Counted from the stretch's first letter, positions 24,522 to 51,640 are shown. The stretch is DNA of 64,000 nt from a bacterium (GCA_021825465.1 JAKAGX010000001.1:5347-69346); one strand, 5' to 3'. The notes: generated from the sequence alone by a model not told the origin. A program made the numbers and translations.

Positions 24522-26303
24522 CTAAGCCACCTCCTTCTGGTAGCATTCCTCGCAATACACGATCTCGGAGCGATCGGGCGAATAGGTCGTCTCGAATTCG
24601 TTCGGACAATGCTCCGCGCCGTGGACATGGGATGCGGTATTGCGGTAGACGCCGTTCACGCTCGCCGATCCTCCGCACTGGCACTTTCCTTTCCAAAGCT
24701 TCAACGGATTTCTCTGGCTCAAGCGCTCGTAGTGCCGGCAATTCGAACAAAGGTGCGGCAGAGGCAGGTTGAATTTTCGGTAGAAGCCCAACTCGGCGGG
24801 GGTCACTTTGAAAGCCGTCGCACATTGATCGTTGCATTTCCCGCCGTGAGCGCAGCTTATGACCTCATTCAAGATCGAATCTTTTACTTCCGCTATCGTA
24901 TCGGGCAAATCATCCGATCTCAAGGTCACGGTGTATTGCTTTTCGGACGATTCGCGCCATTTATATCCCAGTTTCATCGCCTCATCGTGACTCAAGGGGT
25001 GAAGCTCGGCCGCCACCGTCTCGTTGTACGAGAAAGGTGATATTTCCGAGGGGAAAAATTCGCCATAGCCGTACTTCCTGCCGCCTTTGTCCATATACGG
25101 CATATCATCCATATGTTTCCGTATTTGCGGAATGAGCTTTTCATACTCCTCTTTTTCATATTGTTTGTTCAAGATGCAGTACTGCTTATTCCTCAATCCT
25201 ACGCATCCGAAGAGGTTCGACGAATCGTGGCAATTATATGAATAAAGCGTGTCGCGGCAAGAGCGCACGAAGCGCGAATAATAAATCCCGCTTCCCGGAT
25301 AAACAGTCGACGAGTCTACCACCCGTTCGGTGTTCAAACCCGAATGGTCGCAATCGAAGCAATCTTTCACTTCGGAATAAATAAGCCAAAGGTAACTTGA
25401 ATCTTCCGCTCCGCCGAATACGCTGAACGAGCGACGGCAATTTTTAGCGCCTTCGAGGTCGTCTCCGCTCGAATTGACGCTTCGGATGACCTTCGCGAAT
25501 CTCCTGGGATATTTCAACGATTCGCTCCGGAATCGTTCTTTCATTTTTGAAAGCGACCGGTACCCCCGGGGCATCAATTCCTTGACCTTTTCCTCGTACT
25601 CATCTTTCGAATATTCCTTGTTGAAAATGCAATACGACTTGTTGTTCAAATTCGTGCACCCGAAACAATGGTGGCAGTTGCGGCAGTTGAACAAAAACGC
25701 GCTGTCGTAGCAACCTTCGCAATATCTGCTCCACAACAACCGACTGGAAGAAATGCAATCGACGGTCTCGTAATTGAATTCGCTTTTTGAAATCCAATAG
25801 CAATCCATGCATTCTTTGCAATTGAAGATGAAAGCGGAGTACAGCGAGTTTTCATTGAAATCCCCGCCGATCACGAGATAGCAATCCTTATTGCCTTCGG
25901 TGATGCTGCAGTATTCGCTCCGCACGCCTCGCTGGTTCATAAGCGCCACATCCGGAACCTCTTGCCAGAGATCGCGCAGCTGCTCAAAGAAGTTTCGGGA
26001 AAAATTGTAATTCCTGCCGTACACCATCGGATCCCATGAATCTCCCCACCAGAACGCTTGATCGTAAATACGCTGCGGATTGTCCGGGGAAAAAAGCGAG
26101 AGGATCGTTTCGTTGTGCCCCGGCGCATCGCACGTTTTCCAATAAAGGATGCGCTCGTTCCGGAAGGTCATTCTCCGCTCGAGCCGGCAATCCGGACAAA
26201 AGGTCGGCGGAGGAACTTGCATCTTTTCATAAAAAGCGAAATCCTCGGCATAAACCATGAATTCCTTTTTGCAGTTTTGGCATTGCCGAATTTCCGAAGT
26301 CAT
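24522..26303 (-). CDS. Cys-rich zinc-ribbon repeat protein, array paralog 1 of 13 (3'-most; uncharacterised family)
   Basis: The 593 aa ORF starts with the N-terminal 'CQNCKKEF ... FYEKMQVPPPTFCPDCR'. It has duplicated 'LNNKSYCIFNKEYSKDEYE' and 'LRNKQYCILNKQYEKEEYEKL' modules. The C-terminus reads 'FYRKFNLPLPHLCSNCRHYERL ... CPNEFETTYSPDRSEIVYCEECYQKEVA'. There is no signal peptide. Confidence 0.85.
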   Translation of the reverse strand: MTSEIRQCQNCKKEFMVYAEDFAFYEKMQVPPPTFCPDCRLERRMTFRNERILYWKTCDAPGHNETILSLFSPDNPQRIYDQAFWWGDSWDPMVYGRNYNFSRNFFEQLRDLWQEVPDVALMNQRGVRSEYCSITEGNKDCYLVIGGDFNENSLYSAFIFNCKECMDCYWISKSEFNYETVDCISSSRLLWSRYCEGCYDSAFLFNCRNCHHCFGCTNLNNKSYCIFNKEYSKDEYEEKVKELMPRGYRSLSKMKERFRSESLKYPRRFAKVIRSVNSSGDDLEGAKNCRRSFSVFGGAEDSSYLWLIYSEVKDCFDCDHSGLNTERVVDSSTVYPGSGIYYSRFVRSCRDTLYSYNCHDSSNLFGCVGLRNKQYCILNKQYEKEEYEKLIPQIRKHMDDMPYMDKGGRKYGYGEFFPSEISPFSYNETVAAELHPLSHDEAMKLGYKWRESSEKQYTVTLRSDDLPDTIAEVKDSILNEVISCAHGGKCNDQCATAFKVTPAELGFYRKFNLPLPHLCSNCRHYERLSQRNPLKLWKGKCQCGGSASVNGVYRNTASHVHGAEHCPNEFETTYSPDRSEIVYCEECYQKEVA

Positions 26304-26312
26304 ATGTTTATT

Positions 26313-28055
26313 TTACACCACCTCCGCGTTATAGCACTCTTCGCAGTAGACCGTTTCTGGCCGCTCGGGAGCGAATGCCGTCTCGAACTCGTTCGGGCAT
26401 TTCCCCCTGCCGTGGAAGTGGGTCGATGTATCGCACATGCAGGAGCGATGCCAAAGCCTGAGGGGCGTCCCCTGCTTCAGACGCTCGTAGTGCCGGCAGT
26501 TCGGGCAGAGATGCGGAAGCGGCAAATCCATCCTCCTCAAGAACTGCAACTCCGGAGCGATGATCCTGAACGCGCCTGTGCATTGCTCGCCGCACTTCCC
26601 TCCGTGAGGGCATTCGATGGTCTGATCCAGAATGTCGTCTTTTACGCCCTCAATATCATCGGGTAATTTGTCCGCTTTCACCGAAATCGCATAATCCTTT
26701 GCCGTTTCATTTCTCCAGGGATACTTCTCTTCCGCCGCTTGTTCCGCCGTCAGCGGGAAATACTCCTCAGCGATCGTCTCGTTGTACGCGAAGGGAGAGA
26801 TCTCGATCGGGAAGAACTCGCCGTATTTATATATTCTCCCCTTCTCGTCCGTATACGGCATCTCGCCCATCTGTTTCTTGATCTTCGGGAGAAGCGCTTC
26901 GTATTCCTCTTTCGAGTACTGCTTGTTCAGAATACAAAAATCTTTTTTCCTCACTCCGACGCACCCGAAAAGGTTGGATCCTCCCCGACAGTAATCCGAA
27001 TACTCTACGTTCACGATGTTTTCGTAGGTATTGGAGGAAAAGAAATTGCGGGAATCGTGATAAGCGACATTGACCCCCTCATAGCTCAGCTCCCCGCCGT
27101 CTCCCGCGCCGTGGAGATCCATGCAGTCCTTGATCTTCAGCGCCTGCGTGCAATACCGCAGGTTTTCGCATTCATCGATGTTGAACGACTTGAAAATATT
27201 CTTGGAATTGATGATGTGGTTGCCGCTCACGTTCACAACCTTACTCGTGAACGCAAACCTTTGGATGGAGCGTTTCTTTAATTCGATAAATTCGCTCTTA
27301 AGCGACTCAATAACCCTTGCACTTCCTAATCCCATTTCCCGCATCTTCCTTTCGTACTCCTCCTTGGTCAGCTGTTCGCCTCGGAATACATAGGACTTGT
27401 TTCTCAAATTGGATCCCATGAAACAGCTCTTGCATCCCGCGCAGTTGTACAGAAAATAAGAATCCATGCAGTCGCGGCAATTTTGCAGATAAGCGGAGTG
27501 GACCGCGTGATTGGTGTCCATGGATTCATAGCAGAACTCGGAATCCGTAACGACGTTCGAATCGAAAACGTCGCGATCGTGGAATGCCTTGTGGCTATAG
27601 GCGATATTCTCGGAATAGAAGGTCGATGGTGCCATGTAAACGTCCTTCGAGAGCCATGTGAAATTCGAATACGGTGCGTTCTGATTTTGAAGGCTCTCCA
27701 AGGCCAGACGGGGAACTTCCGCTAAAAGTTTTCGGAATTGTTCAAAGAACGGCTTCGAAAAATCGTACTCGCGGCCGTACGACATGACATCCCACGTATC
27801 CGAGAACCAACAATCATAGCAGTAAACTTTGAACGGCCTCTCTCCGGAATACATCGAGATGATGGATTTGCCGCAAAGATCGCACGTATCCTTGTACAAA
27901 CTGCGCTCGTTCCGAAACGACATCCGCCGCTGCCGCCGGCATTCCGGGCACCAGGTTGGCGGAGGAACGTTGATCCGTTCGTAGAAACTAAAATCCCCAG
28001 GCTCAACGACGAACTCCTTCTTGCAGTTTTGACAGATCTTTGTTTCAGCGTTCAT
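26313..28055 (-). CDS. Cys-rich zinc-ribbon repeat protein, array paralog 2
   Basis: The 580 aa ORF has the same architecture. Its start overlaps the stop of paralog 3 in an ATGA arrangement. Confidence 0.85.
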   Translation of the reverse strand: MNAETKICQNCKKEFVVEPGDFSFYERINVPPPTWCPECRRQRRMSFRNERSLYKDTCDLCGKSIISMYSGERPFKVYCYDCWFSDTWDVMSYGREYDFSKPFFEQFRKLLAEVPRLALESLQNQNAPYSNFTWLSKDVYMAPSTFYSENIAYSHKAFHDRDVFDSNVVTDSEFCYESMDTNHAVHSAYLQNCRDCMDSYFLYNCAGCKSCFMGSNLRNKSYVFRGEQLTKEEYERKMREMGLGSARVIESLKSEFIELKKRSIQRFAFTSKVVNVSGNHIINSKNIFKSFNIDECENLRYCTQALKIKDCMDLHGAGDGGELSYEGVNVAYHDSRNFFSSNTYENIVNVEYSDYCRGGSNLFGCVGVRKKDFCILNKQYSKEEYEALLPKIKKQMGEMPYTDEKGRIYKYGEFFPIEISPFAYNETIAEEYFPLTAEQAAEEKYPWRNETAKDYAISVKADKLPDDIEGVKDDILDQTIECPHGGKCGEQCTGAFRIIAPELQFLRRMDLPLPHLCPNCRHYERLKQGTPLRLWHRSCMCDTSTHFHGRGKCPNEFETAFAPERPETVYCEECYNAEVV

Positions 28056-29863
28056 ACAACTTCACTGTTATAGCAGGATTCGCAGTACACGATCTCTTTT
28101 CTCTCCGGCGCATACGGCGTCTCAAATTCACTCGGGCAACGATCGTTACCGTGAGTATGCTTGGAGAGGTTGGTATAAATGCCATTCTCTGATCTTTCGC
28201 CGACACATTGACACCGACGATGCCAGAGCTTGAGCGGCTTCCGCTGCTCTAAACGCTTAGCATGGCGACAGCTGAAGCAGAGGTGCGGCAATGGCAACCC
28301 CATCCGCCGGTAGAATGAGAGTTCCTGCGGGATGATCCTGAACGCCGCTGTGCACTGCTCGTTGCACTCCCCCCGGTGCGCACATTCGATGATCTCATCC
28401 ACGATCGAATCCTTCGCGTCATCTATGCTGTCGGGTGTATCGGCCTCCTTCATCGTCACCTGGTATTTTTTTTCTTCCGGCTCTTTCCACTTGAATCCGC
28501 GGCTCAGAGCGTCACTTTCATTCAACGGAAAATATTCTTGTGCGATCGTCTCATTGTAGACGAAGGGGCTAAGTTCCGGCGGGAAGAACTCGCCGTATTT
28601 ATAGATCCTCTCTTTCGAGTCAACATAGGGCATCTCGTTCATCTGCTCAACGATCCGGGGAATCAACTCTTCATATTCTTCTTTCGAGTACTGCTTGTTC
28701 AAAATGCAGTATTGTTTGTTCCGGAGACCCGCACACCCGAAGAGATTCGAGGAATCATAGCAGTTCTCCGAATAGGCCACATTGGCGTTGTTCCAGCTCA
28801 CATACGCAAATTTAGTGGAGGAATTAATGGCTCCGCCGATGATCTCATAAGAGAAAAACAAATTCCCTCCCACTTGCATGCAATCATAGTCGTTCTCGGC
28901 ATTCCATCCGCAAATGGTCAAATATTTGCCGTGTGAAGCCCCCACCCCTCCGCCGAATTCCGCGGAACTCGACGATCCGATGAAAAAACACATCCTCAGG
29001 TCATTGGAATTCTCAATGTCGTTCCCCGTCACGTTCTCGGATTTTGTGATGTGAGCGAATTTCATCGGCTGTGAGAGGATAAATGCCTTGAATTTTCCTT
29101 TGTATTCCTCAAGGATCTTGTACGATTTTAAATCGACTTCCGAGAATCTCCTTTCATATTCCTCCTTGGTGAGCTGCTCGTTGAACCAGCAGTATTGTTT
29201 GTTCCGAAGGCCCGCACACCCGAAGCAGTTCGAACATCCCCGGCAGTCATAAAGGAACCATGAGTTGAGACAATTGTCGCAATAGCGGCCGAAAGCAACG
29301 TGATATGATTTTGTGCTGTCCAGGAGTTCATAGCACTTTTCGCTTTCGTTTATGAAAAAGGTATCCACGCTGTCCTTGCTGTAGAGAGCGGTATTGGTAT
29401 ACATGACGTCTTCGCTGTTGTATCCGCCGATCTCCATATAGCAATTCTTGTGATTACTGACATTGTTGCAGTACTCGCTCCCGACGGAGTTCCGGTTCAT
29501 CATACTGATGCGCGGCACTTTGAGCATCAAATCGTGAAACTGCTCGAAGAAGGGCCTGGAAAAATCGTAATCCCGCCCGAAATCCATCGGATTCCAGCCG
29601 TCGGACCACCAAAATTTCGCATCATAGACCGTGAACGGCGAATTGTTCGGATAGAGGGAAATGATGTCCTCCGCATGCCCCGGGGCGCCACACTTTCGTT
29701 TGTAGAGCATCTTTTCGTTCCGCCACGTCATTCTTCTCATTGACCGGCATTCCGGGCACCACGTGGGCGGTGGGACCTGTATCCTCTCGTAGAATGCGAA
29801 ATCCTCCGGATCAATCACGAATTCCTCTTTGCAGTTTTGGCAGGTTCTGGTTTCTTGTTTCAT
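28052..29863 (-). CDS. Cys-rich zinc-ribbon repeat protein, array paralog 3
   Basis: The 603 aa ORF has the same architecture. It has ATGA overlaps with both neighbours. Confidence 0.85.
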   Translation of the reverse strand: MKQETRTCQNCKEEFVIDPEDFAFYERIQVPPPTWCPECRSMRRMTWRNEKMLYKRKCGAPGHAEDIISLYPNNSPFTVYDAKFWWSDGWNPMDFGRDYDFSRPFFEQFHDLMLKVPRISMMNRNSVGSEYCNNVSNHKNCYMEIGGYNSEDVMYTNTALYSKDSVDTFFINESEKCYELLDSTKSYHVAFGRYCDNCLNSWFLYDCRGCSNCFGCAGLRNKQYCWFNEQLTKEEYERRFSEVDLKSYKILEEYKGKFKAFILSQPMKFAHITKSENVTGNDIENSNDLRMCFFIGSSSSAEFGGGVGASHGKYLTICGWNAENDYDCMQVGGNLFFSYEIIGGAINSSTKFAYVSWNNANVAYSENCYDSSNLFGCAGLRNKQYCILNKQYSKEEYEELIPRIVEQMNEMPYVDSKERIYKYGEFFPPELSPFVYNETIAQEYFPLNESDALSRGFKWKEPEEKKYQVTMKEADTPDSIDDAKDSIVDEIIECAHRGECNEQCTAAFRIIPQELSFYRRMGLPLPHLCFSCRHAKRLEQRKPLKLWHRRCQCVGERSENGIYTNLSKHTHGNDRCPSEFETPYAPERKEIVYCESCYNSEVV

Positions 29864-31581
29864 ACAATCTCTGCATTAAAACACTGCTCGCAATAGATGA
29901 CTTCTTTTCTCTCCGGCGCGTACGAGGTTTCGAACTCGTTAGAGCATCTTCCCTCTCCGTGGAAATGGGTTTTCTTGTCGCACATGCACGAGCGATGGTA
30001 GAGCTTCGGGGGGTTGACGCTCCGAAACCGCTCCCCGTGGCGGCACTCAAAGCACTTGCGGGGCAGGGCCGCATTTATCTTTTTCAAAAAATCGTATTCT
30101 TTCCCAATGATCTGGTACGGCTTACCACACGAGGAACACTCAATGATTTCTCTCGTAATTGAGTCCGGCGTTTCCTTGATATCATCCGGCAGCTCGCCCG
30201 CTTTCTTGGTAATCGTGTGGCGCGGAGCATCCGCCTCGCGCCATGCAAAACCGCTCTCGGATGCTCTTTCCCTCGTGAGCGGGAAATAATCGTTCGCCAC
30301 CGTCTCGTTGTAGGCAAAAGGTGAAAGCTCAGTCGGAAAAAATTCACCGTAGCCGTACGTTCTCCCTCTCCCGTCCACGTACGGTACTTTCCCCATCTGC
30401 TCGATGATCTTCGGAATTAATGTTTTGTACTCTTCTTTGGAATACTGCTTGTTCAGGACGCAGTATTCCCGATTCCGGAGACCGATGCAACCGAAGAGAT
30501 TACTCGAGCCGTGACAATTCAAAGCATAACGGGCATCATTGGTACCGTAGACCGATCCCACAAAGTATTGTCGAGACGCCTCGACGCCGGAATCGAAGCC
30601 CTCATAGAGCAGCTCGCAATTTCCCCCCACGCCATAGCCGTCGTACGTATCAGTGGCAGAAAGGGCATTGGTGAGATATTTGCAGTCCTTCACGTTGCCG
30701 TACGAATCAAAACAAAAGCGCGAATCGGCGACATTATACAGCCGGTCGCCGGTCACATTGTTACAACTCACGAATGTCGCGTATTTCCTGATGGCGCCGA
30801 GCTTAAGGACCTCGAATTTTTTCTTCGTCTCCTCAAGCTGCCGGAAACTTCCCAAGTCGATCGCCGCCACTCTTTTCCCGTACTCCTCCCTGCTCAACTG
30901 CTCATTGAAGAAGCAGTAGGACTTATTCCGCAAATTCGTACACCCGAAGCAATCCGTGCATCCCTTGCAACCGAAGAGGAACCAAGAATCGGCGCAACCT
31001 TCCGATTCGGAGGAAAAGTGGACGTTAAACAGTTTGCTGCTCCCGACATCATATGAACACAGGCTGCAATTATTGATCGCAAAGGCGTCAACGATATCTT
31101 TTGACGCGTTGCAACGGGAGGCATAGCACACATTTTCGCCGTCCCACGATGCCGAGACGAGGTACGCATCTTTATACTCGCCGACATAATTCACATAACT
31201 GGAGTTCACTGTCCGCGCATTGAAGACCGCCGGCATCGGCACTTTCTTCAGAAGCTCCGCGAACTGCCCGAAGAATGGCCTCGAAAAATCATAGTCAGCA
31301 CCGAAAGCGAGCGGATCCCATGCGTCGCTCCACCAATAATCCCGATCGTATACCGTTATGCCCGAATCGGGCGCAAAACAGGAGATAACCGCCTTCCCCG
31401 TCGCCGCACATTTATTCCTGAAGAGCGTCCGTTCGTTCCGCCAGGCAAACCGACGCTGCATCCGGCATTCCGGGCACCAGGTTGGCGGTGGGACCTGTAT
31501 CCTCTCGTAGAATGCGAAATCCTCCGGTTCGATCGTGAACTCCTTCTTGCAGTTCTGGCACCGTCGCGTTTCCGAGGTCAT
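29860..31581 (-). CDS. Cys-rich zinc-ribbon repeat protein, array paralog 4
   Basis: The 573 aa ORF has the same N- and C-terminal signatures. It is preceded by the 114 nt structured intergenic element. Confidence 0.85.
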   Translation of the reverse strand: MTSETRRCQNCKKEFTIEPEDFAFYERIQVPPPTWCPECRMQRRFAWRNERTLFRNKCAATGKAVISCFAPDSGITVYDRDYWWSDAWDPLAFGADYDFSRPFFGQFAELLKKVPMPAVFNARTVNSSYVNYVGEYKDAYLVSASWDGENVCYASRCNASKDIVDAFAINNCSLCSYDVGSSKLFNVHFSSESEGCADSWFLFGCKGCTDCFGCTNLRNKSYCFFNEQLSREEYGKRVAAIDLGSFRQLEETKKKFEVLKLGAIRKYATFVSCNNVTGDRLYNVADSRFCFDSYGNVKDCKYLTNALSATDTYDGYGVGGNCELLYEGFDSGVEASRQYFVGSVYGTNDARYALNCHGSSNLFGCIGLRNREYCVLNKQYSKEEYKTLIPKIIEQMGKVPYVDGRGRTYGYGEFFPTELSPFAYNETVANDYFPLTRERASESGFAWREADAPRHTITKKAGELPDDIKETPDSITREIIECSSCGKPYQIIGKEYDFLKKINAALPRKCFECRHGERFRSVNPPKLYHRSCMCDKKTHFHGEGRCSNEFETSYAPERKEVIYCEQCFNAEIV

Positions 31582-38759: not shown

Positions 38760-38795
38760 TATAAAACAAATGCTCCGCGGTTAAACGCAGAGCAT
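38760..38795 (-). terminator. Intrinsic terminator candidate for the MFS/hypothetical island, abutting the start of paralog 8
   Basis: On the minus strand the stem AUGCUCUGCG-uuuaac-CGCGGAGCAU has one mismatch. It is followed by UUGUUUUAUAA and then immediately by the ATG at 38759. Confidence 0.45.
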
Positions 38796-38820
38796 CGAAA
38801 CAATCACAAACAGGAGGACG

Positions 38821-40585: not shown

Positions 40586-40778
40586 TTACGACACCGCCAA
40601 ACTCGCCAAATTCTTCGGCGTGACCGAACGAACCGTTCTCGAATGGTGCCGGAGAGGAAAGCTTCCGGCTTTCAAGATCGGCAAACAATGGAGGGTGCGG
40701 GTTATCGATCTCCAAAAAATGATCGATCGCAAGGTGACGACCCGGCGAGATTCGCGCTATACCACTTCGCTGTTGTAG
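40560..40778 (+). CDS. Excisionase-family/MerR-like helix-turn-helix DNA-binding protein (small)
   Basis: The sequence 'IYDTAKLAKFFGVTERTVLEWCRRGKLPAFKIGKQWRVRVIDLQKMI' fits the excisionase-type HTH pattern. It is the only plus-strand ORF there. It overlaps the MFS 3' end and the start of paralog 9, so it is uncertain. Confidence 0.4.
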   Translation: MMKSRENAIYDTAKLAKFFGVTERTVLEWCRRGKLPAFKIGKQWRVRVIDLQKMIDRKVTTRRDSRYTTSLL

Positions 40779-44549: not shown

Positions 44550-46246
44550 AAAACAATAGATTGATAGCACTTGTTGCAATAAACGATCGAGGCCTCCTTC
44601 TCGGGATACCGCGAAACGAACTGGATGCCGCACTTCGAGCAGGTGCGCGGATGCCGAGCCATATTTCCGAGCCACAGTTTGAATTTCTCATTGACGCGGC
44701 AGAAGGGACATTCACGGGGCAGCGGCAGGTCCATGTGGCGCAGGAACGAGAGTTCCGCAGGAATCAGTTTGAATCCCCGTCCGCATTTCGAGCAACCGAT
44801 AACCTCATTCAAAATACCATCCTTCGCATCCCGGATGTGGTCAGGCAGATCGGCGGCCGGAATCGTCGTTTGAAATTCACTCTTCGGCAGATTGCGCCAC
44901 TCATACCCCCTTTCTGCGGCTTTTTCTCTCGAGAGCGGGACAAAACAGTTGGCATCCGATTCGTTGTAGGCGTTCGGCGAAAGCTCGACGGGAAAAAACT
45001 CGCCATACCGGTATTCCCGCCCCTTCTTGTCCCGGTAAACATTCGCGTCCATATCCTTTTTGATCCGCTCGGCCAGTTTTTTATACTCTTCCTTCGGATA
45101 TTTCTTGTTCAAGATGCAATACTCCGCCTTCTTCATCCCGGCACAGCCGAAACAATGGGAACTCGAGGTAAGCGTTTTGCAGTATTCCAAATCTTCTCCC
45201 TTCATAACCTCCTGGCTGAATCTGATGTTCGAACTTTGATTGCCGACAACCGAAGCGTCATACGAAAGAGAAAGGTTTTCTCCCCAATAGGTTATGTCGT
45301 AGCTGTCCGCTATGCCGTCGGATACCATGCTCACGTACCGGCAGTTCTCGCCGTCATTCACCTGGAACGAATCTTTGACGTTCTTGGAATCATAAATGTG
45401 CGCTCCCCAGCAATCGACGTTCCGGTCGCCGAATTCCGCTTTCGGAATCTGCGTCGCCCAAAACGCTTCGGCTTCATGGAGCGCTCTTTGGTATCCCTCG
45501 TACGACCCCAGATCGTATTTCGCGATCTCTTTTTGATATTCTTCTTTCGAGTATTGCTTGTTCTTGATGCAATATTTCTTGTTCTTGACGCTCGCACACA
45601 TACGGCAATCCTGGCAATTCGAAGCATCTTTCATGAAAGCGCAGTTCAAGAGTTCCACGGCGTAGTTCCGGAGGCCGATCCCGCGATTGCATCTCCATGC
45701 ATGCATCGAATCATAGAGCCATTCCGAATTGAGGCAGAGAGTGCAATCCCAAACGGATTTATCATGTTCCACATAAAACCCGTATGCGGAGTCCTCGACG
45801 TAATTCGCCTGGTAGAGAAGATAGCAATTTTTGAGATTCGCGGCATTGCTCGTATAGGGGGAATCCTTCGATGTCTGGATGTCGACGGATAACCCCAAAA
45901 GCGGCACTTTGTGCATCAAGTCGTCGAACTGTTCAAGAAACGGCCGAGAAGGATCATATTCCCTCCCCTCCGCATACTGGTCCCATCCGTCACCCCACCA
46001 GCATTCGGGACAATAAACAACATAGGGCGCATCGGGCGCATACACCGAGATCACGTTTTTCTTGCAAAGATCGCACCTCCGTTTGAAGAGATTGAAGGTA
46101 TTGAACCATGCGAGCCGCCTTTCGAGCCGACACTCGGGGCAAAAGGTCGGCGGCGGGACTTGGATTCGCTCATAGAACGAGAAATCCTCGGGTTCGATGG
46201 TGAACTCCTTTTTGCAGTTTTGGCAGGTTTTGATTTCAGTATTCAT
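44546..46246 (-). CDS. Cys-rich zinc-ribbon repeat protein, array paralog 10 (C-terminal variant subfamily)
   Basis: The 566 aa ORF has the canonical N-terminus. Its C-terminus differs, 'CPFCRVNEKFKLW ... CSKCGIQF ... YCNKCYQSIVL', and is shared with paralog 13. Confidence 0.85.
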   Translation of the reverse strand: MNTEIKTCQNCKKEFTIEPEDFSFYERIQVPPPTFCPECRLERRLAWFNTFNLFKRRCDLCKKNVISVYAPDAPYVVYCPECWWGDGWDQYAEGREYDPSRPFLEQFDDLMHKVPLLGLSVDIQTSKDSPYTSNAANLKNCYLLYQANYVEDSAYGFYVEHDKSVWDCTLCLNSEWLYDSMHAWRCNRGIGLRNYAVELLNCAFMKDASNCQDCRMCASVKNKKYCIKNKQYSKEEYQKEIAKYDLGSYEGYQRALHEAEAFWATQIPKAEFGDRNVDCWGAHIYDSKNVKDSFQVNDGENCRYVSMVSDGIADSYDITYWGENLSLSYDASVVGNQSSNIRFSQEVMKGEDLEYCKTLTSSSHCFGCAGMKKAEYCILNKKYPKEEYKKLAERIKKDMDANVYRDKKGREYRYGEFFPVELSPNAYNESDANCFVPLSREKAAERGYEWRNLPKSEFQTTIPAADLPDHIRDAKDGILNEVIGCSKCGRGFKLIPAELSFLRHMDLPLPRECPFCRVNEKFKLWLGNMARHPRTCSKCGIQFVSRYPEKEASIVYCNKCYQSIVL

Positions 46247-47988
46247 GCCACTTCGCTGTTATAGCACTGTTCGCAGTACACGATCTCGGGGCGATCCGGC
46301 GCATACGAGGTTTCGAATTCATTCGAACATCTCCCCTCCGGATGATGCGTATGTTCTCCGGAATTTTTATATATCTTGTAATCACACATGCACTGTCGCG
46401 CATAGAGCTGGACCTTGTTCCTTTGCGATATTCGAGCCGCATGACGGCAGTCCACGCATGTCCTCGGCAACGGGATCCCTTCGGCGCGCAGAAAGTCGAG
46501 TTCCGGACGGATGATCCGGTAGGCGCGCTTGCACCTCTCGCATGAAATGATCTTCGAAAGAATATCATCTTGAACGTCGCGGATGGAATCGGGAAGCTCG
46601 GACGCATTCATACTCGTTTCGTATTCCTTGCTTTCCGGATCATCCCACGCGTATCCTTTCGCGAGCGCTTCTTCTTTGGTAAGCGGAAAGTGATCAAATA
46701 CTAACGAGGAGTTGTAGCCGAAGGGGGCGTGCTCGATCGGGAAGAATTCGCCGTAGCGATAGATAATTCCCTCCGTATTTACATAGGGATCCTCGTCCAT
46801 GTGTTTTCTGATCTTCTGAACCAATGCCTCATACTCCTCCTTTGGATACTGCTTGTTCAGGATGCAGTATTGTTTATTCCTCAAGCCCACGCATCCGAAG
46901 CAGTTCGAGGAATTTTTCATGAACATGCAATATTCAAGATCCGAATTTTCCGGCCAACACTCCACGCAAAATTTAAGGCGGGAAATATCCCCTCCGCAGA
47001 TCGATGTTTCGTAACAAAGATCCGTGTTCTTTCCCCAAATCGAAACATCCATAGAATCTTTGGTGGACGGCTCGTTTAGATCTTGGCAATGACGGAGATC
47101 TTCCCCTCCCCGTATGAGGTAACCGCGGTAAACATTTTTGGAATTGGAGATGTATTCACCGAGAACATTCGCATTGTTCGTCCCGGTCATATATCGTACG
47201 GGAGAACCAAGCCAGAATTTTTTGACTCTATTCTTCATCTCCGACACCGAAGTCCATTTATCCAAGCGGAGCCGATCGATTCTCTTCTGATACTCTTTTT
47301 TGGACAATTTCTCGTTAAAGAAGCAATAGCTTTGATTCCTTAAATTGACACACCCGAAGCAATTGATGCATCCCCGGCAGTTCCGGGAGAACCAAACGCC
47401 GGTGCAATCCTCGCACTGGGAGGAAAAATGGGTCTGATGGCAAGACGTATGCCAGAAGGATTCATAGCACCGCTCGCATTTTTTCACGTGGGAGCTTTCA
47501 AAACAGTCCCTCGAGAAATCCACTTGGTTGCCATAGGCGCAGTTTTCCGCTCCCGAACAGTTGAAGACCAGGTAGCAATCCTTCGACCAGCCGATATTCG
47601 CGGTAAAATCCGAGCGCACATTCGACTCCGTAGATCGTGGTACCCGCGGCACGGCCTGCGCAAGTTCATATATCTGTTCAAAAAAGGTCTTATGTTCGTC
47701 GATATCTCTGCCATACTGGAGAGCGTCCCAGTCATCTTCACGCCATTCATCTTCGTCATACAGGGTTACTTTAGACCCTTTAGAGTAGAGAGCGAGGATC
47801 CGCTTGCCTGATTTAACGCTCGTATTCCAAAAAATCTTCCGCTCGTTGCGATACGCAAGCCGCCGCTGGAATCGACACAGCGGGCACCATGTCGGCGGCG
47901 GGACTTGGATTCGCTCATAGAACGAGAAATCCTCCGGTTCGATGGCAAATTCCTCATGGCAATTCTGGCAGGTATGGGTTTCAGACAT
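46243..47988 (-). CDS. Cys-rich zinc-ribbon repeat protein, array paralog 11
   Basis: The 581 aa ORF has the canonical ends. It has an ATGA overlap with paralog 10. Confidence 0.85.
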   Translation of the reverse strand: MSETHTCQNCHEEFAIEPEDFSFYERIQVPPPTWCPLCRFQRRLAYRNERKIFWNTSVKSGKRILALYSKGSKVTLYDEDEWREDDWDALQYGRDIDEHKTFFEQIYELAQAVPRVPRSTESNVRSDFTANIGWSKDCYLVFNCSGAENCAYGNQVDFSRDCFESSHVKKCERCYESFWHTSCHQTHFSSQCEDCTGVWFSRNCRGCINCFGCVNLRNQSYCFFNEKLSKKEYQKRIDRLRLDKWTSVSEMKNRVKKFWLGSPVRYMTGTNNANVLGEYISNSKNVYRGYLIRGGEDLRHCQDLNEPSTKDSMDVSIWGKNTDLCYETSICGGDISRLKFCVECWPENSDLEYCMFMKNSSNCFGCVGLRNKQYCILNKQYPKEEYEALVQKIRKHMDEDPYVNTEGIIYRYGEFFPIEHAPFGYNSSLVFDHFPLTKEEALAKGYAWDDPESKEYETSMNASELPDSIRDVQDDILSKIISCERCKRAYRIIRPELDFLRAEGIPLPRTCVDCRHAARISQRNKVQLYARQCMCDYKIYKNSGEHTHHPEGRCSNEFETSYAPDRPEIVYCEQCYNSEVA

Positions 47989-48012
47989 ACTAAATACTAT
48001 ATACCAAATACT

Positions 48013-49713
48013 TCATACTATCTCCTTCTGATAACATCCTTCACAATAAATGATCTCCTTGTTTTCCGGAGAAAAACTCGTCTCGAACTCGTTCGGGCAC
48101 CGGCCGGAATGATCATGTCCGGTTTTATCGCACATGCAATTGCGGTGCCATGTCTTGTTCGGCCCGCGCGCCGCGAACCGCCGTTCGTGCCGGCAATCCG
48201 GGCACTCGCGCGGGAGCGGGATCTCCAGGTGTTTGTAAAACTCGAATTCGCTCGGGATGATGCGGAAATTTTTCTTGCATTTCGTGCACGCGAAGATCTC
48301 TTTCGGCACGTCGATACCTCCGATGTCGCGGATCGAATCGGGTATCTTGTCCCACGGCATCGTTTCCTTGCCGTAGGTCCCCCGCGGATGGTCCTCCCAC
48401 TTGAATCCCTGCCGTAGCGCTTCTTCTTTCGTGAGCGGAAACTGGCCCTCTGCGGCCGTCTCGTTGTATCCGAAGGCACTGACGGATGCCGGGAAGAATT
48501 CGCCGTAGATCCCCTCCTCCCTCATTTTCGCGATGATCTCCTTCCGCAATGTTCCGTACTCTTCGGGCGAATATTGCTTATTCAGGATGCAGTAATTCTG
48601 CTTTCGGAGACCCGTGCACCCGAAGCAGTTCGTGCAGTTGAAGCAGTAGAAAGAATAGTCCATGAAACTCGACGACCAGCAGACGGCGGTGGCAACATAA
48701 TGCGAGACGTCGATGCCGGCATTGATCGAATTGTAGACCAGCTCCGCGCTTCTGCCCGCCGTGTCGGCATCGACGCAATCTTTCGCGTTCCGCCAGATAT
48801 GGACGCCGTATTTACTGTCCTCGGAATCGTAGCAGTGGAAGCATGACTTGCAATTCTTCGCGTCTTCGATGTAGTTCCCCGAAGAGCCGGGCGAGTTGTA
48901 GACTTGAGCGAACCGGCGCGGCTCCCCCATCGCGAAATCCTCGAATTTCTTTTTGAATGCCTCGAGGCCGCTCCACGTATCGAACTGCGCTTCTTCGAGG
49001 AACTTTTCGTAATCTTCTTTCGAAACCGGCTTGTTGAAAATGTGGTACTGCTTATTGAACAGATTGACGCAACCCACGCAATTCGAGCAGCCGCGGCAAT
49101 CAAGGAGAAAATACCCGTCGTGCGAATCGTGGCATCCTTTGCTCCAAAACAAACGATACGAGTTGTAGCAGTCGTCGCTCTCGTACGAAAGTTCCGTCTT
49201 GCTCGCGAAGGACGTATCGACGCAATCCTTGCACTCTTGGATCCAGTAGCAGTGGGTACATCCCTCGTTGTTCGACGACTCCACGAGCATATAGCAATTC
49301 TTGTTGTCGGCCGATATGTTCACATACTCGGAGTTGACGCTCCGCTCGTGCATCAGACCGACCTTCGGCACTTTGTTCCAAAGTTCGGCGAACTGATTTA
49401 AGAACGGCTTTGCGGGGTCGTACTCAATACCGAGATCGCGACCATCCCAGCCGTCGGAAAACCAGCAATCGTGGCACCACACCGCGTACGGTTTATTCGG
49501 ACTGTACATCGAGATGCCATCCTTGCCGCATTTGTCGCACTTCCGGGAATAGAACGAGCGTTCATTTCTGAACGCCAATCTTCTTTGTGCGCGGCACGCC
49601 GGGCACAGCCTGGGCGAAAGAACGCCCATCTTTTCGTAAAAACCAAAATCCTCCGGTTCGATGGCAAATTCCTCATGGCAATTCTGACAAGTTCTGGTTT
49701 CGGTTTTAGTCAT
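48013..49713 (-). CDS. Cys-rich zinc-ribbon repeat protein, array paralog 12
   Basis: The 566 aa ORF has the canonical ends. Confidence 0.85.
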   Translation of the reverse strand: MTKTETRTCQNCHEEFAIEPEDFGFYEKMGVLSPRLCPACRAQRRLAFRNERSFYSRKCDKCGKDGISMYSPNKPYAVWCHDCWFSDGWDGRDLGIEYDPAKPFLNQFAELWNKVPKVGLMHERSVNSEYVNISADNKNCYMLVESSNNEGCTHCYWIQECKDCVDTSFASKTELSYESDDCYNSYRLFWSKGCHDSHDGYFLLDCRGCSNCVGCVNLFNKQYHIFNKPVSKEDYEKFLEEAQFDTWSGLEAFKKKFEDFAMGEPRRFAQVYNSPGSSGNYIEDAKNCKSCFHCYDSEDSKYGVHIWRNAKDCVDADTAGRSAELVYNSINAGIDVSHYVATAVCWSSSFMDYSFYCFNCTNCFGCTGLRKQNYCILNKQYSPEEYGTLRKEIIAKMREEGIYGEFFPASVSAFGYNETAAEGQFPLTKEEALRQGFKWEDHPRGTYGKETMPWDKIPDSIRDIGGIDVPKEIFACTKCKKNFRIIPSEFEFYKHLEIPLPRECPDCRHERRFAARGPNKTWHRNCMCDKTGHDHSGRCPNEFETSFSPENKEIIYCEGCYQKEIV

Positions 49714-49742
49714 TGGGTCATTCGTATATTGAAAATTGATAT

Positions 49743-51449
49743 CTATGCCGTCAATTCACTGTAGCATTTCTTGCAAAGGATGTTTTGGGCATCGTGATTA
49801 CTGATCGATGTCATAAATTCGGCCCCACACTTCGAACACGCTCTCTTTTCCATCTTCAAGTTATCGACCCATATATCGATCTTCTTATTGATCCTGCAAA
49901 AAGGACATTCGCGGGGCAACGGATAATTCATCTTCCGAAGGAACTCCAATTCATCCCTTGTTATTCTGAACCCCCGGCCGCATCGAGCGCAACCGATGAT
50001 CTCGCTTAAAATTGAATCCGGCGCATCCTTGATATGATCCGGCAGATCGGCGGCTTTTTTCGTCACCTCGTATTCTTTTTTTTCAAAAGCACGCCATCCG
50101 TAGCCTTCGTCGCGCGCATCGCGCTCGGTCATCGGAAAAAAATTTTGAGCCAACGTCTCGTTATATGCGAACGTGCTCATTTCGATCGGGAAGAATTCCC
50201 CATATCGATACACCCTGCCCTTCCGATCGGTGTACGGCATGTCCATCATATGTTGGCGTATTTTCGGAACGAGAGCATCGTATTCCTCGGGGGTATATTG
50301 CTTGTTTAAAATGCAATACTGCCCCTTTTTAAGGGAAATGGATCCGAAGACATGTGCCCCGCCGTAAATGAGAAATGAATATTCGGAGTCGACCAAATTC
50401 AATCCCGACCCATAATTGAATTTCACTTCGCTCGCGTTTTCACCGACATTCGGCGAATCGTAGGAAAGCGTGAGATTATTTCCCCAGCTTGTAATGTCGT
50501 AGCAATCTTTCGTTCCCGGAAGGTAGAGCATCGCGAGATACTTTGAATTTTCTGCGCCCAAAACTTCGTAGCATTCCTTGCAATTCCGCGATTGGAACAC
50601 GTTGTTCCCCGTGCAGTTTTCGGTAAATTCATCGAAGACCGGCTTCGGCGGGAACTTTTTCCAATGCTCTTCGGCAAGCTTCTGGATCTCTTGATACTCG
50701 CGATACGACCCGAGGTCCCATCTTTTGATCTCTTTGAAATATTCTTCTTTTGAATACGGCTTGTTGAAAATATAGTATTTTTTATTCCTTAAATTGACCG
50801 AAGCGAAACAATTTTGGCATCCCCACGAATATTTCAAGAAGTATGAATCGATCGACTCCGTTACTTGCCCTCGAAGGCCGGCACATCGGGTGCATCGGTA
50901 TGTATGCATCGAATCGTAGCAAAGCTCCGAATTCATGATGAGCGATGAGTCGAAGACCGACCTGCTCTCTGTGACGTAAAAGCCGTACGCGGAATCCTCG
51001 TCGAAATCGGCGTGAAAGAGCATATAGACATTCTTGTTATTGCCGCTCAAGTGTGAATACGGCGAGGTCTTCAGGGTCATAAAATCCGTCGAGAGCGCCG
51101 GAAGCGGGGCTTCGCGCACAAGGTCCTTGAATTGTTCGAAGAAGGGCCGCGAAAAATCGTAATCGCGGCCGTAATCGCGGGGATCCCACGTATCACTGAA
51201 CCAGCAAGGCAAACAAAAAACCCGGTAGGGTGCGTCAGGCGCGTAAACAGAAATAGTATCCTTGCTGCACAAGTCGCACTTCCGCTTATAGAGGTTGATG
51301 ACATTCATAAACGCCAAGCGCCGCTTTTCGCGGCACTCGGGACAAAACGTCGGCGGAGGGACTTTTATCCTCTCATAAAAAGCGAGATCCTCAGGCTCAA
51401 TGACAAATTCGCGGCGGCAGTTCTGGCAAACTTCTTTCCGGGGACCCAT
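49743..51449 (-). CDS. Cys-rich zinc-ribbon repeat protein, array paralog 13 (5'-most; C-terminal variant subfamily)
   Basis: The 568 aa ORF has the canonical N-terminus and the variant C-terminus 'CPFCRINKKIDIW ... CSKCGAEF ... CKKCYSELTA'. Confidence 0.85.
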   Translation of the reverse strand: MGPRKEVCQNCRREFVIEPEDLAFYERIKVPPPTFCPECREKRRLAFMNVINLYKRKCDLCSKDTISVYAPDAPYRVFCLPCWFSDTWDPRDYGRDYDFSRPFFEQFKDLVREAPLPALSTDFMTLKTSPYSHLSGNNKNVYMLFHADFDEDSAYGFYVTESRSVFDSSLIMNSELCYDSMHTYRCTRCAGLRGQVTESIDSYFLKYSWGCQNCFASVNLRNKKYYIFNKPYSKEEYFKEIKRWDLGSYREYQEIQKLAEEHWKKFPPKPVFDEFTENCTGNNVFQSRNCKECYEVLGAENSKYLAMLYLPGTKDCYDITSWGNNLTLSYDSPNVGENASEVKFNYGSGLNLVDSEYSFLIYGGAHVFGSISLKKGQYCILNKQYTPEEYDALVPKIRQHMMDMPYTDRKGRVYRYGEFFPIEMSTFAYNETLAQNFFPMTERDARDEGYGWRAFEKKEYEVTKKAADLPDHIKDAPDSILSEIIGCARCGRGFRITRDELEFLRKMNYPLPRECPFCRINKKIDIWVDNLKMEKRACSKCGAEFMTSISNHDAQNILCKKCYSELTA

Positions 51450-51451
51450 AG

Positions 51452-51640
51452 CTACTCCGCGTCGTCGCCTTCCTCTTCTACATTAATATGATTCTCGGTA
51501 AGGAGCCCGGCTTCCTTCAGTTTTTTCTGCTGCATTTTGAAAATCCTCTTGCATCGAGCGGTCAAAATCAAACCTCTCACGATCTTGTACGCGAGAAAAA
51601 GAATGACTAATCCTATTACGATGTACCAAAAAACATTCAT
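51452..51640 (-). CDS. Small single-TM protein, first gene of the array operon
   Basis: The 62 aa ORF has the TM helix 'VFWYIVIGLVILFLAY' followed by a basic and then acidic tail. Its stop is 2 nt before the ATG of paralog 13. Confidence 0.5.
   Translation of the reverse strand: MNVFWYIVIGLVILFLAYKIVRGLILTARCKRIFKMQQKKLKEAGLLTENHINVEEEGDDAE

What the first reader, a model, noticed from the sequence alone, without database searches (positions are those of the whole stretch)
24522..51640. 27 kb operon-like tandem array of 13 paralogous cysteine-rich zinc-ribbon/solenoid proteins of an apparently uncharacterised family
Thirteen co-directional minus-strand genes of 553-603 aa share one architecture. 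They occupy about 40% of the window. All 13 open with a double CxxC module, 'C-QNC-K-x-F ... FYE-x-I-x-VPPPT-x-CP-x-CR-x-x-RR' followed by 'C-x-x-CGK ... YC-x-x-CW'. Eleven of the thirteen end with a mirrored double CxxC module, 'FYR-x-x-x-LPLP-x-LCP-x-CRH ... LWHR-x-C-x-C ... CPNEFETSY-x-PE-x-x-EIVYCE-x-CY'. The 'FY ... (V/L)P-x-P-x-x-CP-x-CR' signature therefore recurs at both termini. Each protein contains an internally duplicated module of the form 'C-x-x-C-x-x-CFGC-x-x-LRNK-x-YC-I-x-NKQYSKEEYE-x-L'. One copy sits mid-protein. The second copy is followed by 'EMPY-x-D-x-x-GR-x-Y-x-YGEFFP-x-E-x-SPF-x-YNET'. The region between the N-terminal module and the first repeat is the most variable. 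It shows a 9-11-residue periodicity with recurring Tyr/Ser/Asn/Cys positions, for example 'NVAYHDSRNFF / SSNTYENIVNV / EYSDYCRGGSN' in paralog 2. This suggests a beta-solenoid-like fold. No member has a signal peptide or TM helix, so the roughly 40 cysteines per protein are more likely metal ligands than disulfides (inference). Pairs 11/10, 4/3 and 3/2 are translationally coupled by ATGA overlaps. This is an expanded, evidently ancient and diversified family with a conserved frame and a variable core. That pattern is expected for a diversified binding scaffold (inference), not a housekeeping enzyme. I cannot match it to any characterised domain from memory.
Basis: partly seen in the sequence, partly recalled or inferred. 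Interest (0 to 1): 0.9.

Follow-up and report, generated by a model that had tools for sequence, protein, structure and literature searches.

The report
Zinc-capped beta-helix gene family array
Thirteen intact tandem genes in a tiny-genome (Patescibacteria) bacterium encode an undescribed family of soluble proteins, each with two narrow cysteine-lined beta-helices capped by zinc fingers, and across many genomes the family sits next to an "orphan" secretion-type ATPase, which makes it the best current lead to what that ATPase does.

Summary
There are 13 intact minus-strand paralogues of 551-603 aa (30-50% pairwise identity) between 24522 and 51449, in three tight blocks. Three unrelated genes interrupt the array.

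Each protein has homologous N- and C-terminal zinc modules (borderline PF13451 treble-clef). They flank an internally duplicated core (hhalign E=3e-33). AlphaFold2 (pLDDT 88-91) and sequence periodicity show the core is a 12-residues-per-turn beta-helix, with Cys/Ser at every third position.

The paralogues are ancient subfamilies under purifying selection, not a fast-evolving expansion.

New here: the genes are directly adjacent to, and co-directional with, a membrane-anchored VirD4-like coupling ATPase. This holds for 31 of 59 such genes in family-centred loci, and 41 of 62 ATPase-centred loci have a family gene within 1 kb downstream.

Best reading (inferred): a repertoire of rigid binding scaffolds that serve that ATPase as clients or adaptors. 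Function is untested.

Reader corrections: 26-38 Cys rather than about 40; period 12, not 9-11; the second N-terminal CxxC pair is present in only 6 of 13.

The parts
49743..51449 (-). Family gene 13 (568 aa), first in the array. It has the short C-terminal variant, lacking the C-x-C/H-x-H site.
48013..49713 (-). Family gene 12 (566 aa, 38 Cys). CxxCxxCxxC is complete in the last coil of both beta-helices. This is the second AF2 model (pLDDT 91).
46243..47988 (-). Family gene 11 (581 aa). Its stop codon overlaps the start of gene 10 (ATGA).
44546..46246 (-). Family gene 10 (566 aa), with the short C-terminal variant.
40757..42448 (-). Family gene 9 (563 aa). It stands alone between the two insertions.
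36996..38759 (-). Family gene 8 (587 aa).
35316..36977 (-). Family gene 7, the most divergent paralogue (29-33% identity to the others). It has lost zinc sites C1 and C2. The true start is probably the ATG at 36971 (551 aa).
33529..35313 (-). Family gene 6 (594 aa).
31696..33462 (-). Family gene 5 (588 aa). C-terminal zinc site C1 is lost.
29860..31581 (-). Family gene 4 (573 aa). ATGA overlap with gene 3.
28052..29863 (-). Family gene 3 (603 aa). This is the first AF2 model (pLDDT 88, pTM 0.88). ATGA overlap with gene 2.
26313..28055 (-). Family gene 2 (580 aa).
24522..26303 (-). Family gene 1 (593 aa), last in the array.
54040..55467 (-). N-terminal half of a split VirD4-like coupling protein (475 aa). 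It has two N-terminal transmembrane helices. It matches the N-terminal part of phrog_5156 and clusters with the ATPase family.
53497..54036 (-). Small single-pass membrane protein (179 aa) between the two halves of the coupling protein. It is conserved in 8 family-centred loci.
52033..53487 (-). ATPase half of the VirD4/TrwB-like coupling protein (484 aa), with intact Walker A and Walker B motifs. Homologues elsewhere are followed by a family gene within 1 kb in 41 of 62 loci.
51690..51995 (-). CutA1 gene between the ATPase gene and the array. The same placement is seen in 5 other loci.
16827..18551 (-). Second, soluble VirD4-like ATPase (574 aa, long low-complexity tail), 6 kb downstream of the array.
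39332..40585 (-). Interrupting MFS transporter gene. It is not a family member.
42689..43921 (+). Interrupting orphan gene on the opposite strand (410 aa). It has only 7 homologues, all labelled hypothetical.
43911..44675 (-). Interrupting HAD-family hydrolase gene. The listed GTG start overlaps gene 10.

Best explanation
**What it is (shown).** These are 13 functional genes of a large, undescribed protein family found here only in Patescibacteria (Paceibacteria/Parcubacteria-type lineages). Each product is a soluble protein of about 590 aa that folds as one rigid body. The parts, in order, are:
- an N-terminal treble-clef zinc module;
- an aromatic-rich connector;
- a narrow beta-helix of about 8 coils, 12 residues per coil, with Cys/Ser/small residues pointing inward at every third position;
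- a helical linker;
- a second, homologous beta-helix;
- a highly conserved connector (MPY..GR.Y.YGEFFP.E.SPF.YNET);
- a C-terminal zinc module homologous to the N-terminal one, with up to three metal sites.

The genome keeps one member of each of many old subfamilies.

**How it most likely works (inferred).**
- The conserved zinc-capped frame is the part seen by a shared partner. The differing beta-helix surfaces give each paralogue its own ligand.
- The shared partner is most likely the membrane-anchored VirD4/TraG-like coupling ATPase encoded directly upstream on the same strand.
- On this reading the family would be the client set of that ATPase. Its members could be substrates handed to it for export towards the host, or adaptors that bring other cargo (protein or nucleic acid) to it.
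- Such ATPases lie away from virB4 in most Patescibacteria, and their role is not known.
For: **Genes are real and constrained**
- All 13 ORFs are intact and align along their full length.
- pN is 0.10-0.35 against saturated pS of 0.72-1.0 in all five regions.
- The family has at least 6,921 clusters at 90% identity and 2,387 representatives at 50% identity with E<1e-30.

**Architecture**
- hhalign: core A against core B E=2.9e-33; N module against C module E=5.6e-21.
- AF2: pLDDT 88 with pTM 0.88, and pLDDT 91 with pTM 0.90, for two paralogues about 40% identical to each other.
- DSSP shows one 4-residue strand every 12 residues.
- 95% of Cys-Cys spacings in core A are multiples of 3.

**Zinc sites**
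- Ligand sets co-vary as all-or-none units: 58/61/81/84 phi 0.97-0.99; 504/529/532 phi 0.83-0.92; 553/H569/H571 phi 0.93-0.96; 576/594/597 phi 0.80-0.92.
- The terminal module superposes at 0.6 Å over 41 residues on annotated zinc-ribbon-domain proteins.

**Soluble**
- No transmembrane segment or signal peptide in any paralogue.

**Old subfamilies**
- Every paralogue is closer to a gene in another genome (51-100% identity) than to any array-mate (34-50%).
- Arrays elsewhere hold mostly one member per subfamily.

**Link to the ATPase**
- A VirD4-like gene lies within 10 kb in 34 of 80 family-centred loci. About 4% would be expected from roughly 2 such genes per roughly 1 Mb genome. That figure is my estimate, using the counts in PMC12102498.
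- 31 of 59 such genes are immediate same-strand neighbours of a family gene.
- In the reverse search, 41 of 62 ATPase-centred loci have a family gene starting within 1 kb downstream, always on the same strand.
- The pairing persists in two different wider contexts: dnaK-V-F-F-V-dnaJ, and secD-secF-sigma-like-V-g-V-F.
Against: - No experiment or expression data bear on function.
- The adjacency could be inherited gene order within one bacterial class rather than functional coupling. Both context types lie near dnaK/dnaJ, so they may not be independent.
- No VirB4, VirB6 or other channel gene is in the window.
- The one genetically tested Patescibacteria T4CP homologue was not essential for epibiotic growth (PMC12102498).
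- Rigid proteins with several zinc sites are poor candidates for translocation through a narrow channel unless they are exported before they fold.
- The C-terminus is structured and ends in a zinc knuckle. It is not a disordered, charged tail like many T4SS signals.
- 25 of 79 family-centred loci have a single copy, and many have no ATPase gene within 10 kb.
- Orthologues are well conserved, which fits a housekeeping role at least as well as a host-interaction role.
Confidence: 0.4

Rival explanations
1. These are nucleic-acid-handling proteins. The treble-clef/zinc-ribbon modules at the two ends would bind DNA or RNA, with the beta-helix acting as a spacer. The proteins would work with the neighbouring FtsK/VirD4-superfamily ATPase as a DNA translocase, for example in DNA uptake or processing, on which these nucleotide-auxotrophic bacteria depend.
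For: - The terminal modules carry conserved basic residues next to the zinc knuckles (CR..RR...RNER, CRH..R).
- Treble-clef and zinc-ribbon folds often bind nucleic acids (general knowledge).
- The partner ATPase belongs to a family of DNA-pumping coupling proteins.
- ComEC is encoded in the same window at 13478-14893.
Against: - The whole proteins are mildly acidic (pI 5.4-6.3).
- No match to any DNA- or RNA-binding family.
- It is unclear why nucleic-acid handling would need more than 10 conserved subfamilies.
- The function of PF13451 itself is unknown.
Confidence: 0.15
2. The family has an autonomous intracellular role and the ATPase linkage is historical gene order. Possible roles are a structural or cytoskeletal element, a chaperone-associated factor (the genes lie between or beside dnaK and dnaJ), or a thiol/metal buffer that uses the internal cysteine ladders.
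For: - dnaK and dnaJ flank the ATPase-family block in Nomurabacteria-type loci, and lie a few genes away in other loci.
- CutA1 (named for divalent-cation tolerance) sits between the ATPase gene and the array in 6 loci.
- Strong purifying selection with stable orthologues.
- 12-20 non-site cysteines per protein are lined up inside the beta-helices.
Against: - Cysteine is only about 5% of residues, and the core Cys are freely replaced by Ser/Val/Leu. Metal storage is therefore unlikely to be the selected function.
- Both helix ends are capped by other domains, which argues against end-to-end polymerisation.
- Immediate same-strand adjacency to the ATPase, with gaps of 5-30 bp, recurs far more often than adjacency to dnaK/dnaJ.
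Confidence: 0.2
3. These are exported, disulfide-bonded surface or host-binding proteins, analogous to secreted Cys-rich beta-helix proteins such as insect antifreeze proteins or adhesins. They would leave the cell by a non-classical route, and their cysteines would form disulfides outside the cell.
For: - The core has the 12-residue coil and period-3 small-residue pattern of the Tenebrio antifreeze beta-helix.
- A DsbD-like membrane protein gene lies in the window at 8768-9514.
Against: - No signal peptide or transmembrane segment in any of the 13 paralogues.
- Cysteines lie at i and i+3, not at the i/i+6 cross-coil positions that form the antifreeze disulfides.
- The terminal CxxC sets behave as metal sites, which is typical of the reducing cytoplasm.
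- Paralogues are not fast-evolving as surface antigens usually are.
Confidence: 0.1

Closest known systems
PF13451 zf_Tbcl ('probable treble clef' / 'putative zinc-ribbon' domain) proteins
   Same: - The N- and C-terminal modules share its two CxxC pairs and its F..FY....P.P..C..CR signature.
- 7 of 13 paralogues give sub-threshold hits, and some homologues carry a precomputed PF13451 hit.
- The model superposes at 0.6 Å over 41 residues on viral proteins with that annotation.
   Different: - PF13451 is a domain of about 48 residues with unknown function, mostly in small proteins. Here it is only the cap of a 590-aa architecture and occurs at both ends.
- Scores (18-20 bits) are below the 24-bit gathering threshold.
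Tenebrio molitor antifreeze protein (12-residue Cys-rich beta-helix, PDB 1EZG)
   Same: - 12 residues per coil, with small inward-facing residues (Cys/Ser/Ala-type) at every third position.
- A very narrow solenoid.
   Different: - No sequence homology (E=6.3).
- No Thr-x-Thr ice-binding ladder.
- Cys are not at the i/i+6 disulfide positions.
- Cytoplasmic rather than secreted.
- Two helices per protein, embedded between zinc modules.
[not shown]
   Same: A stacked strand-turn-strand solenoid topology.
   Different: - Curli subunits are secreted amyloid subunits with coils of about 20 residues, and they polymerise end to end.
- Here the coils are 12 residues, the ends are capped, and the proteins have no export signal.
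VirD4-type coupling proteins and their effector repertoires (for example Xanthomonas/Stenotrophomonas X-Tfe effectors, or Legionella DotL clients; my own knowledge)
   Same: A multi-member set of proteins genetically tied to a membrane-anchored VirD4-like ATPase, with a shared conserved part and divergent remainder.
   Different: - No recognisable translocation signal domain.
- No VirB channel genes nearby.
- No evidence of export.
- In Patescibacteria most T4CP genes lie away from virB4 and may have been exapted (PMC12102498).
LIM double zinc finger
   Same: The CxxCxxCxxC run at the end of core A aligns weakly with the central HxxCxxCxxC of LIM domains (E=0.057).
   Different: - Not significant.
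- The flanking spacers are 8 residues rather than 16-23.
- The four cysteines do not co-vary as two metal sites.
- They sit in the last coil of a beta-helix.

Membership tests
PF13451 zf_Tbcl domain | Two CxxC pairs about 24 residues apart, with the F..FY...P..C..CR signature | tested here: met
   - C8/C11/C36/C39 are present in 13 of 13 paralogues and 96-98% of 462 family members.
- The same pattern recurs at C494/C504/C529/C532.
PF13451 zf_Tbcl domain | Profile score at or above Pfam's gathering threshold (24 bits) | tested here: not met
   - Best score 20.3 bits.
- 7 of 13 paralogues give sub-threshold hits with E of 5.5e-4 or weaker.
- A few homologues (P0021, P0026) do carry a precomputed hit.
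PF13451 zf_Tbcl domain | Same three-dimensional fold as annotated members | tested here: met
   Foldseek against BFVD: 'putative zinc-ribbon domain protein' at rmsd 0.6 Å over 41 columns, 34% identity, probability 1.00.
Insect antifreeze 12-residue beta-helix | 12-residue coils with inward small residues every third position | tested here: met
   - 95% of Cys spacings are multiples of 3.
- The mod-12 profile is C/S-aromatic-aromatic-C/S-x-N/D-C/L-x-N/D-C/S-E/K-N/D.
- DSSP shows strands every 12 residues.
Insect antifreeze 12-residue beta-helix | TCT ice-binding motif, i/i+6 disulfide pairs, secretion signal, sequence homology | tested here: not met
   - No Thr ladder.
- Cys pairs are at i/i+3.
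- No signal peptide.
LIM domain | CX2CX16-23HX2CX2CX2CX16-21CX2(C/H/D), forming two zinc sites | tested here: not met
   E=0.057 against PDB LIM chains. Spacers are 8 residues. The ligands do not co-vary.
Substrate or adaptor of a VirD4-type coupling protein | Genetic linkage to the coupling-protein gene | tested here: met
   - 34 of 80 family-centred loci have the ATPase gene.
- 31 of 59 ATPase genes are immediate same-strand neighbours of a family gene.
- 41 of 62 ATPase-centred loci have a family gene within 1 kb downstream.
Substrate or adaptor of a VirD4-type coupling protein | A T4SS channel (VirB4, VirB6 and others) encoded with it | tested here: not met
   Pfam scans of the flanking genes in the window found no VirB4 or VirB6 family. 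The rest of the genome was not available.
Substrate or adaptor of a VirD4-type coupling protein | Physical binding to the ATPase and/or translocation; a translocation signal | not testable with these tools
   This needs interaction assays, multimer modelling with coordinates, or secretion assays. The C-terminus is structured, which does not fit the common disordered-tail signals.
Known anti-phage defence systems (PADLOC) and phage protein families (PHROGs) | Profile match to a catalogued component | tested here: not met
   - No significant hit for the family proteins.
- No tblastn hit in 50,697 phage records.
- One marginal fragment in 2.9 million IMG/VR contigs.

The most novel reading that the evidence does not exclude
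- The family is the missing client repertoire of the "orphan", virB4-independent VirD4-like ATPases of Patescibacteria.
- It would be a set of more than 10 conserved, zinc-capped beta-helix proteins that the ATPase exports, or uses as adaptors, to deliver protein or nucleic acid to host cells.
- That would define a new, lineage-specific transport pathway.
- The proteins would also represent a new metalloprotein fold, with an internal thiol ladder.
Probability: 0.25. Interest if true: 0.9.

Novelty: categorically new. Interest (0 to 1): 0.7.

Why it matters
- Paceibacteria-type Patescibacteria have genomes of roughly 1 Mb and about 1,000 genes (my own knowledge). Here 22.6 kb of coding sequence, 35% of this 64-kb window, goes to one family that no database names. 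The same family forms arrays of up to 9 copies within about 20 kb in dozens of other species.
- A family this large, this conserved and this lineage-specific is likely central to how these bacteria live.
- A recent survey found 5,713 VirD4-like coupling proteins in 2,918 Patescibacteria genomes, only 148 of them near virB4, and left their role open (PMC12102498). The tight gene pairing found here gives that question a concrete, testable candidate partner.

Tried and rejected
- **Known-family assignment.** Pfam, NCBIfam, PADLOC and PHROGs gave nothing above threshold. A PDB sequence profile search gave a best E of 0.057, to LIM domains. Foldseek against the PDB found nothing at E<=0.001. The afdb50 library was not available.
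- **Phage or mobile-element origin.** No tblastn hit in phage genomes, and one marginal fragment in IMG/VR.
- **Pseudogenes or decaying copies.** All 13 are intact, there are no extra fragments, and selection is purifying.
- **Recent, fast-evolving expansion or diversifying selection.** Rejected: orthologues in other genomes are closer than array-mates, and pN/pS is low in every region.
- **DNA mimic like pentapeptide-repeat proteins.** pI is only 5.4-6.3 and there is no Pfam pentapeptide hit.
- **Metallothionein-like protein.** Cys is about 5% of residues and the core Cys are replaceable.
- **Core CxxCxxCxxC as an obligate Cys4 or Fe-S site.** The four positions do not co-vary (all pairs below the phi 0.26 listing cut-off). 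The equivalent run in core B is complete in only 2 of the 13 window paralogues, and its two middle positions are Cys in about a quarter of 462 family members.
- **Promoter and terminator scan.** Counts did not exceed shuffled controls, so no operon map is claimed.
- **Literature.** Eight full-text searches found no description of the family.
- **Source organism.** Only 'Patescibacteria group bacterium' could be recovered.

Full report
**1. The observation**

Listing ORFs between 22 and 54 kb gives 13 minus-strand ORFs of 553-603 aa. Their translations carry 26-38 cysteines each. A MAFFT alignment of the 13 has 50 invariant columns. Pairwise BLASTP identity is 30-50%, mean 40%.

tblastn with all 13 against the window finds no further copy or fragment.

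The genes form three tight blocks:
- genes 13-12-11-10;
- gene 9 alone;
- genes 8 to 1.

Intergenic gaps within blocks run from -4 to 114 bp. Three junctions are ATGA overlaps.

The blocks are separated by an MFS transporter gene, an orphan plus-strand gene and a HAD hydrolase gene. The 13 genes total 22.6 kb, which is 35% of the window.

- the last gene starts at 51449, not 51640;
- there are 26-38 Cys per protein, not about 40;
- only 6 of 13 have the second N-terminal CxxC...CxxC pair;
- the core periodicity is 3 and 12 residues, not 9-11.

**2. Architecture**

Profile-profile comparison of alignment slices shows two separate duplications:
- core A (alignment columns 136-250) is homologous to core B (286-425), E=2.9e-33 over 110 columns;
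- the N-terminal module is homologous to the C-terminal module, E=5.6e-21.

AlphaFold2 was run with 132-133-sequence alignments. It gives confident single-body models for two paralogues that share about 40% identity:
- gene 3: pLDDT 88.3, pTM 0.88;
- gene 12: pLDDT 91.0, pTM 0.90.

In the gene-12 model DSSP places a four-residue strand every 12 residues (156, 168, 186, 198, 210, 222), with single bridges at +3 steps.

A 462-sequence alignment of the family shows the same repeat:
- 95% of Cys-Cys spacings in core A are multiples of three, against 33% expected;
- the in-register positions are 35% Cys and 24% Ser, the rest mostly Leu/Val/Thr/Ala;
- the two out-of-register positions are aromatic, or Asn/Asp and charged residues.

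**3. Which cysteines are metal ligands**

Co-occurrence across 462 members separates two classes of cysteine.

The terminal-module ligands are gained and lost as complete sets:

| Site | Ligands (gene 3 numbering) | In the family | In the window |
|---|---|---|---|
| N1 | C8, C11, C36, C39 | near universal | 13/13 |
| N2 | C58, C61, C81, C84 | phi 0.97-0.99; present in 39% | 6/13 |
| C1 | C494, C504, C529, C532 | phi 0.83-0.92 | 11/13 |
| C3 | C551, C576, C594, C597 | near universal | 13/13 |
| C2 | C553, H569, H571 | phi 0.93-0.96 | 10/13 |

That behaviour is expected of tetrahedral metal sites. It implies three to five zinc ions per protein (inference; no metal was measured).

The core cysteines co-vary weakly (phi at most 0.41) and are replaced freely by Ser/Val/Leu. 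They look like packing residues.

The best-conserved core feature is a CxxCxxCxxC run in the last coil of core A (85-94% Cys at each position). Even these four positions do not co-vary as a unit.

The terminal module is a borderline member of Pfam PF13451 (zf_Tbcl):
- 7 of 13 paralogues hit at 18-20 bits, below the 24-bit cut-off;
- it superposes at 0.6 Å over 41 residues on viral 'putative zinc-ribbon domain' proteins.

No paralogue has a hydrophobic stretch (highest 19-residue hydropathy mean 1.11). The proteins are therefore soluble and lack a classical export signal.

**4. Family size, distribution and evolution**

- A profile search of 5.8 billion proteins returned 6,921 hits among the 8,000 candidates that were scored.
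- Every name given is 'hypothetical'. All named sources are Patescibacteria or Parcubacteria-type lineages: Lipton-, Brenner-, Nomura-, Staskawicz-, Jorgensen- and Giovannonibacteria.
- An exhaustive search of 1.84 billion 50%-identity representatives gave 2,387 proteins at E<1e-30.
- In 79 loci from species-representative genomes, 54 carry two or more copies within ±10 kb, and up to nine.
- Every window paralogue has a closer relative in another genome (51-100% identity) than in its own array (34-50%).
- Average-linkage clustering shows that arrays mostly hold one member of each of many subfamilies.
- For six orthologous pairs with DNA available, synonymous sites are saturated (pS 0.72-1.0) and pN is 0.10-0.35. 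pN/pS is 0.12-0.41 in every region.

The family is therefore old, subfunctionalised and under purifying selection. It is neither a recent nor a diversifying expansion.

It is essentially absent from phage records and from IMG/VR (one marginal fragment). It matches no PADLOC or PHROG family.

**5. Genomic context: the new clue**

Neighbouring ORFs from the 79 loci plus the window were clustered. One neighbour family stands out, present in 34 of 80 loci.

It includes three window genes:
- 52033-53487, which matches Pfam TrwB_AAD_bind, TraG-D_C, T4SS-DNA_transf and DUF87 and has intact Walker A and Walker B motifs (sequence read);
- 16827-18551, with the same Pfam matches and intact motifs;
- 54040-55467, which has two N-terminal transmembrane helices and matches the N-terminal part of phrog_5156. 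The ATPase genes match the C-terminal part of that same PHROG.

So 54040-55467, the 179-aa single-pass membrane protein at 53497-54036, and 52033-53487 together form a split, membrane-anchored VirD4-like coupling protein. It lies directly upstream of the array, with only CutA1 in between.

The adjacency numbers are:
- of 59 such genes in family-centred loci, 20 are immediately followed and 11 immediately preceded by a family gene on the same strand, often with gaps under 30 bp;
- in the reverse test, 80 metagenome loci were centred on homologues of the ATPase half, and 41 of the 62 with enough downstream sequence have a family gene starting within 1 kb, always co-directional.

The pair persists in two different wider arrangements:
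- PaaX-like regulator, dnaK, ATPase, family genes, ATPase, dnaJ (Nomurabacteria-type);
- dnaK, dnaJ, secD, secF, a sigma-region-4/HARE-HTH gene, split ATPase, (CutA1), family array (this window and relatives).

A 2025 survey counted 5,713 VirD4-like coupling proteins in 2,918 Patescibacteria genomes. Only 148 were near virB4. The authors noted that the one tested homologue was not essential for epibiotic growth and that exaptation is possible (PMC12102498).

With about two such genes per roughly 1 Mb genome, I estimate that a random 22-kb locus would contain one about 4% of the time. The observed rate is 42%.

**6. Interpretation**

Shown:
- the genes are real and constrained;
- the fold is a zinc-capped double beta-helix with no known counterpart;
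- the family is huge and lineage-restricted;
- it is genetically paired with an orphan VirD4-like ATPase.

Inferred:
- the conserved frame (zinc modules and connectors, the most conserved segments) is recognised by a common partner, most plausibly that ATPase;
- the more variable early coils of the two helices give each subfamily its own ligand;
- the proteins would then be clients of the ATPase, as substrates or as adaptors.

I give this about 0.4.

Points against it:
- there are no channel genes nearby;
- the C-terminus is structured;
- multi-zinc proteins are hard to translocate;
- the synteny may be inherited rather than selected.

Rival readings are:
- nucleic-acid handling alongside a DNA-pumping ATPase (0.15);
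- an autonomous intracellular role, with the linkage being historical (0.2);
- non-classically exported, disulfide-bonded surface proteins (0.1).

**7. Novelty**

Eight full-text literature searches found no description of the family. No curated profile library covers it.

Its building blocks, a treble-clef zinc finger and a beta-solenoid, are known kinds of structure. The architecture, the family and its association with the orphan coupling ATPase are not. I rate it categorically new as a family and system, with function unproven.

Noticed in passing
window 52033-55467 (-): - The VirD4-like coupling protein is split into three genes: a 475-aa membrane/N-domain gene, a 179-aa single-pass membrane protein, and a 484-aa ATPase gene.
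- The two large halves match the N- and C-terminal parts of the same 824-position profile, phrog_5156 (unknown function).
- Single-chain versions of 790-921 aa exist in L001 and L042.
   Followed up: partly
L037, L045, L046, L061 (also L004, L039, L050): In Nomurabacteria-type genomes the ATPase genes and family genes sit between dnaK and dnaJ, with a PaaX-like/HTH regulator divergent from dnaK. This is an unusual interruption of the chaperone gene cluster.
   Followed up: partly
window 42689-43921 (+): - This is the only plus-strand gene inside the array (410 aa).
- It has no Pfam, PADLOC or PHROG hit.
- It has just 7 homologues in 5.8 billion proteins, all 'hypothetical protein [Patescibacteria group bacterium]'.
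   Followed up: partly
window 16827-18551 (-): A second VirD4-like ATPase has no membrane anchor. It carries a C-terminal tail of about 130 residues that is low-complexity, charged and Pro/Gly-rich.
   Followed up: no
window 1-64000: Almost all genes are on the minus strand, and cumulative GC skew falls steadily from -0.09 to -2.63. The window appears to lie within one replichore, with genes co-oriented.
   Followed up: no
window 43911-44675 (-) vs 44546-46246 (-): The HAD hydrolase ORF as listed (GTG start) overlaps the 3' end of family gene 10 by 130 nt. The Pfam match begins at residue 44, so the true start is probably further downstream.
   Followed up: no
window 51650-51678 (-) and 38769-38796 (-): - A near-consensus extended -10 promoter-like site (TTGATT-17-TATAAT, with TG) lies between CutA1 and the first family gene.
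- An 11-bp-stem terminator-like hairpin lies between the MFS gene and family gene 8.
- Overall site counts do not exceed shuffled controls.
   Followed up: no
L003; many loci titled 'uncultured Candidatus Saccharibacteria': - One family gene lies on a 2.2-kb contig binned as Gammaproteobacteria, which is probably a binning error.
- Many TPA MAG records are labelled Saccharibacteria, yet their family genes are 45-63% identical to those of this Parcubacteria-type window. The label may be generic.
   Followed up: no
window 8768-9514 (-): A DsbD/CcdA-like membrane protein gene points to an extracytoplasmic thiol-disulfide system in the same genome. It has no evident link to the cytoplasmic Cys-rich family.
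   Followed up: no
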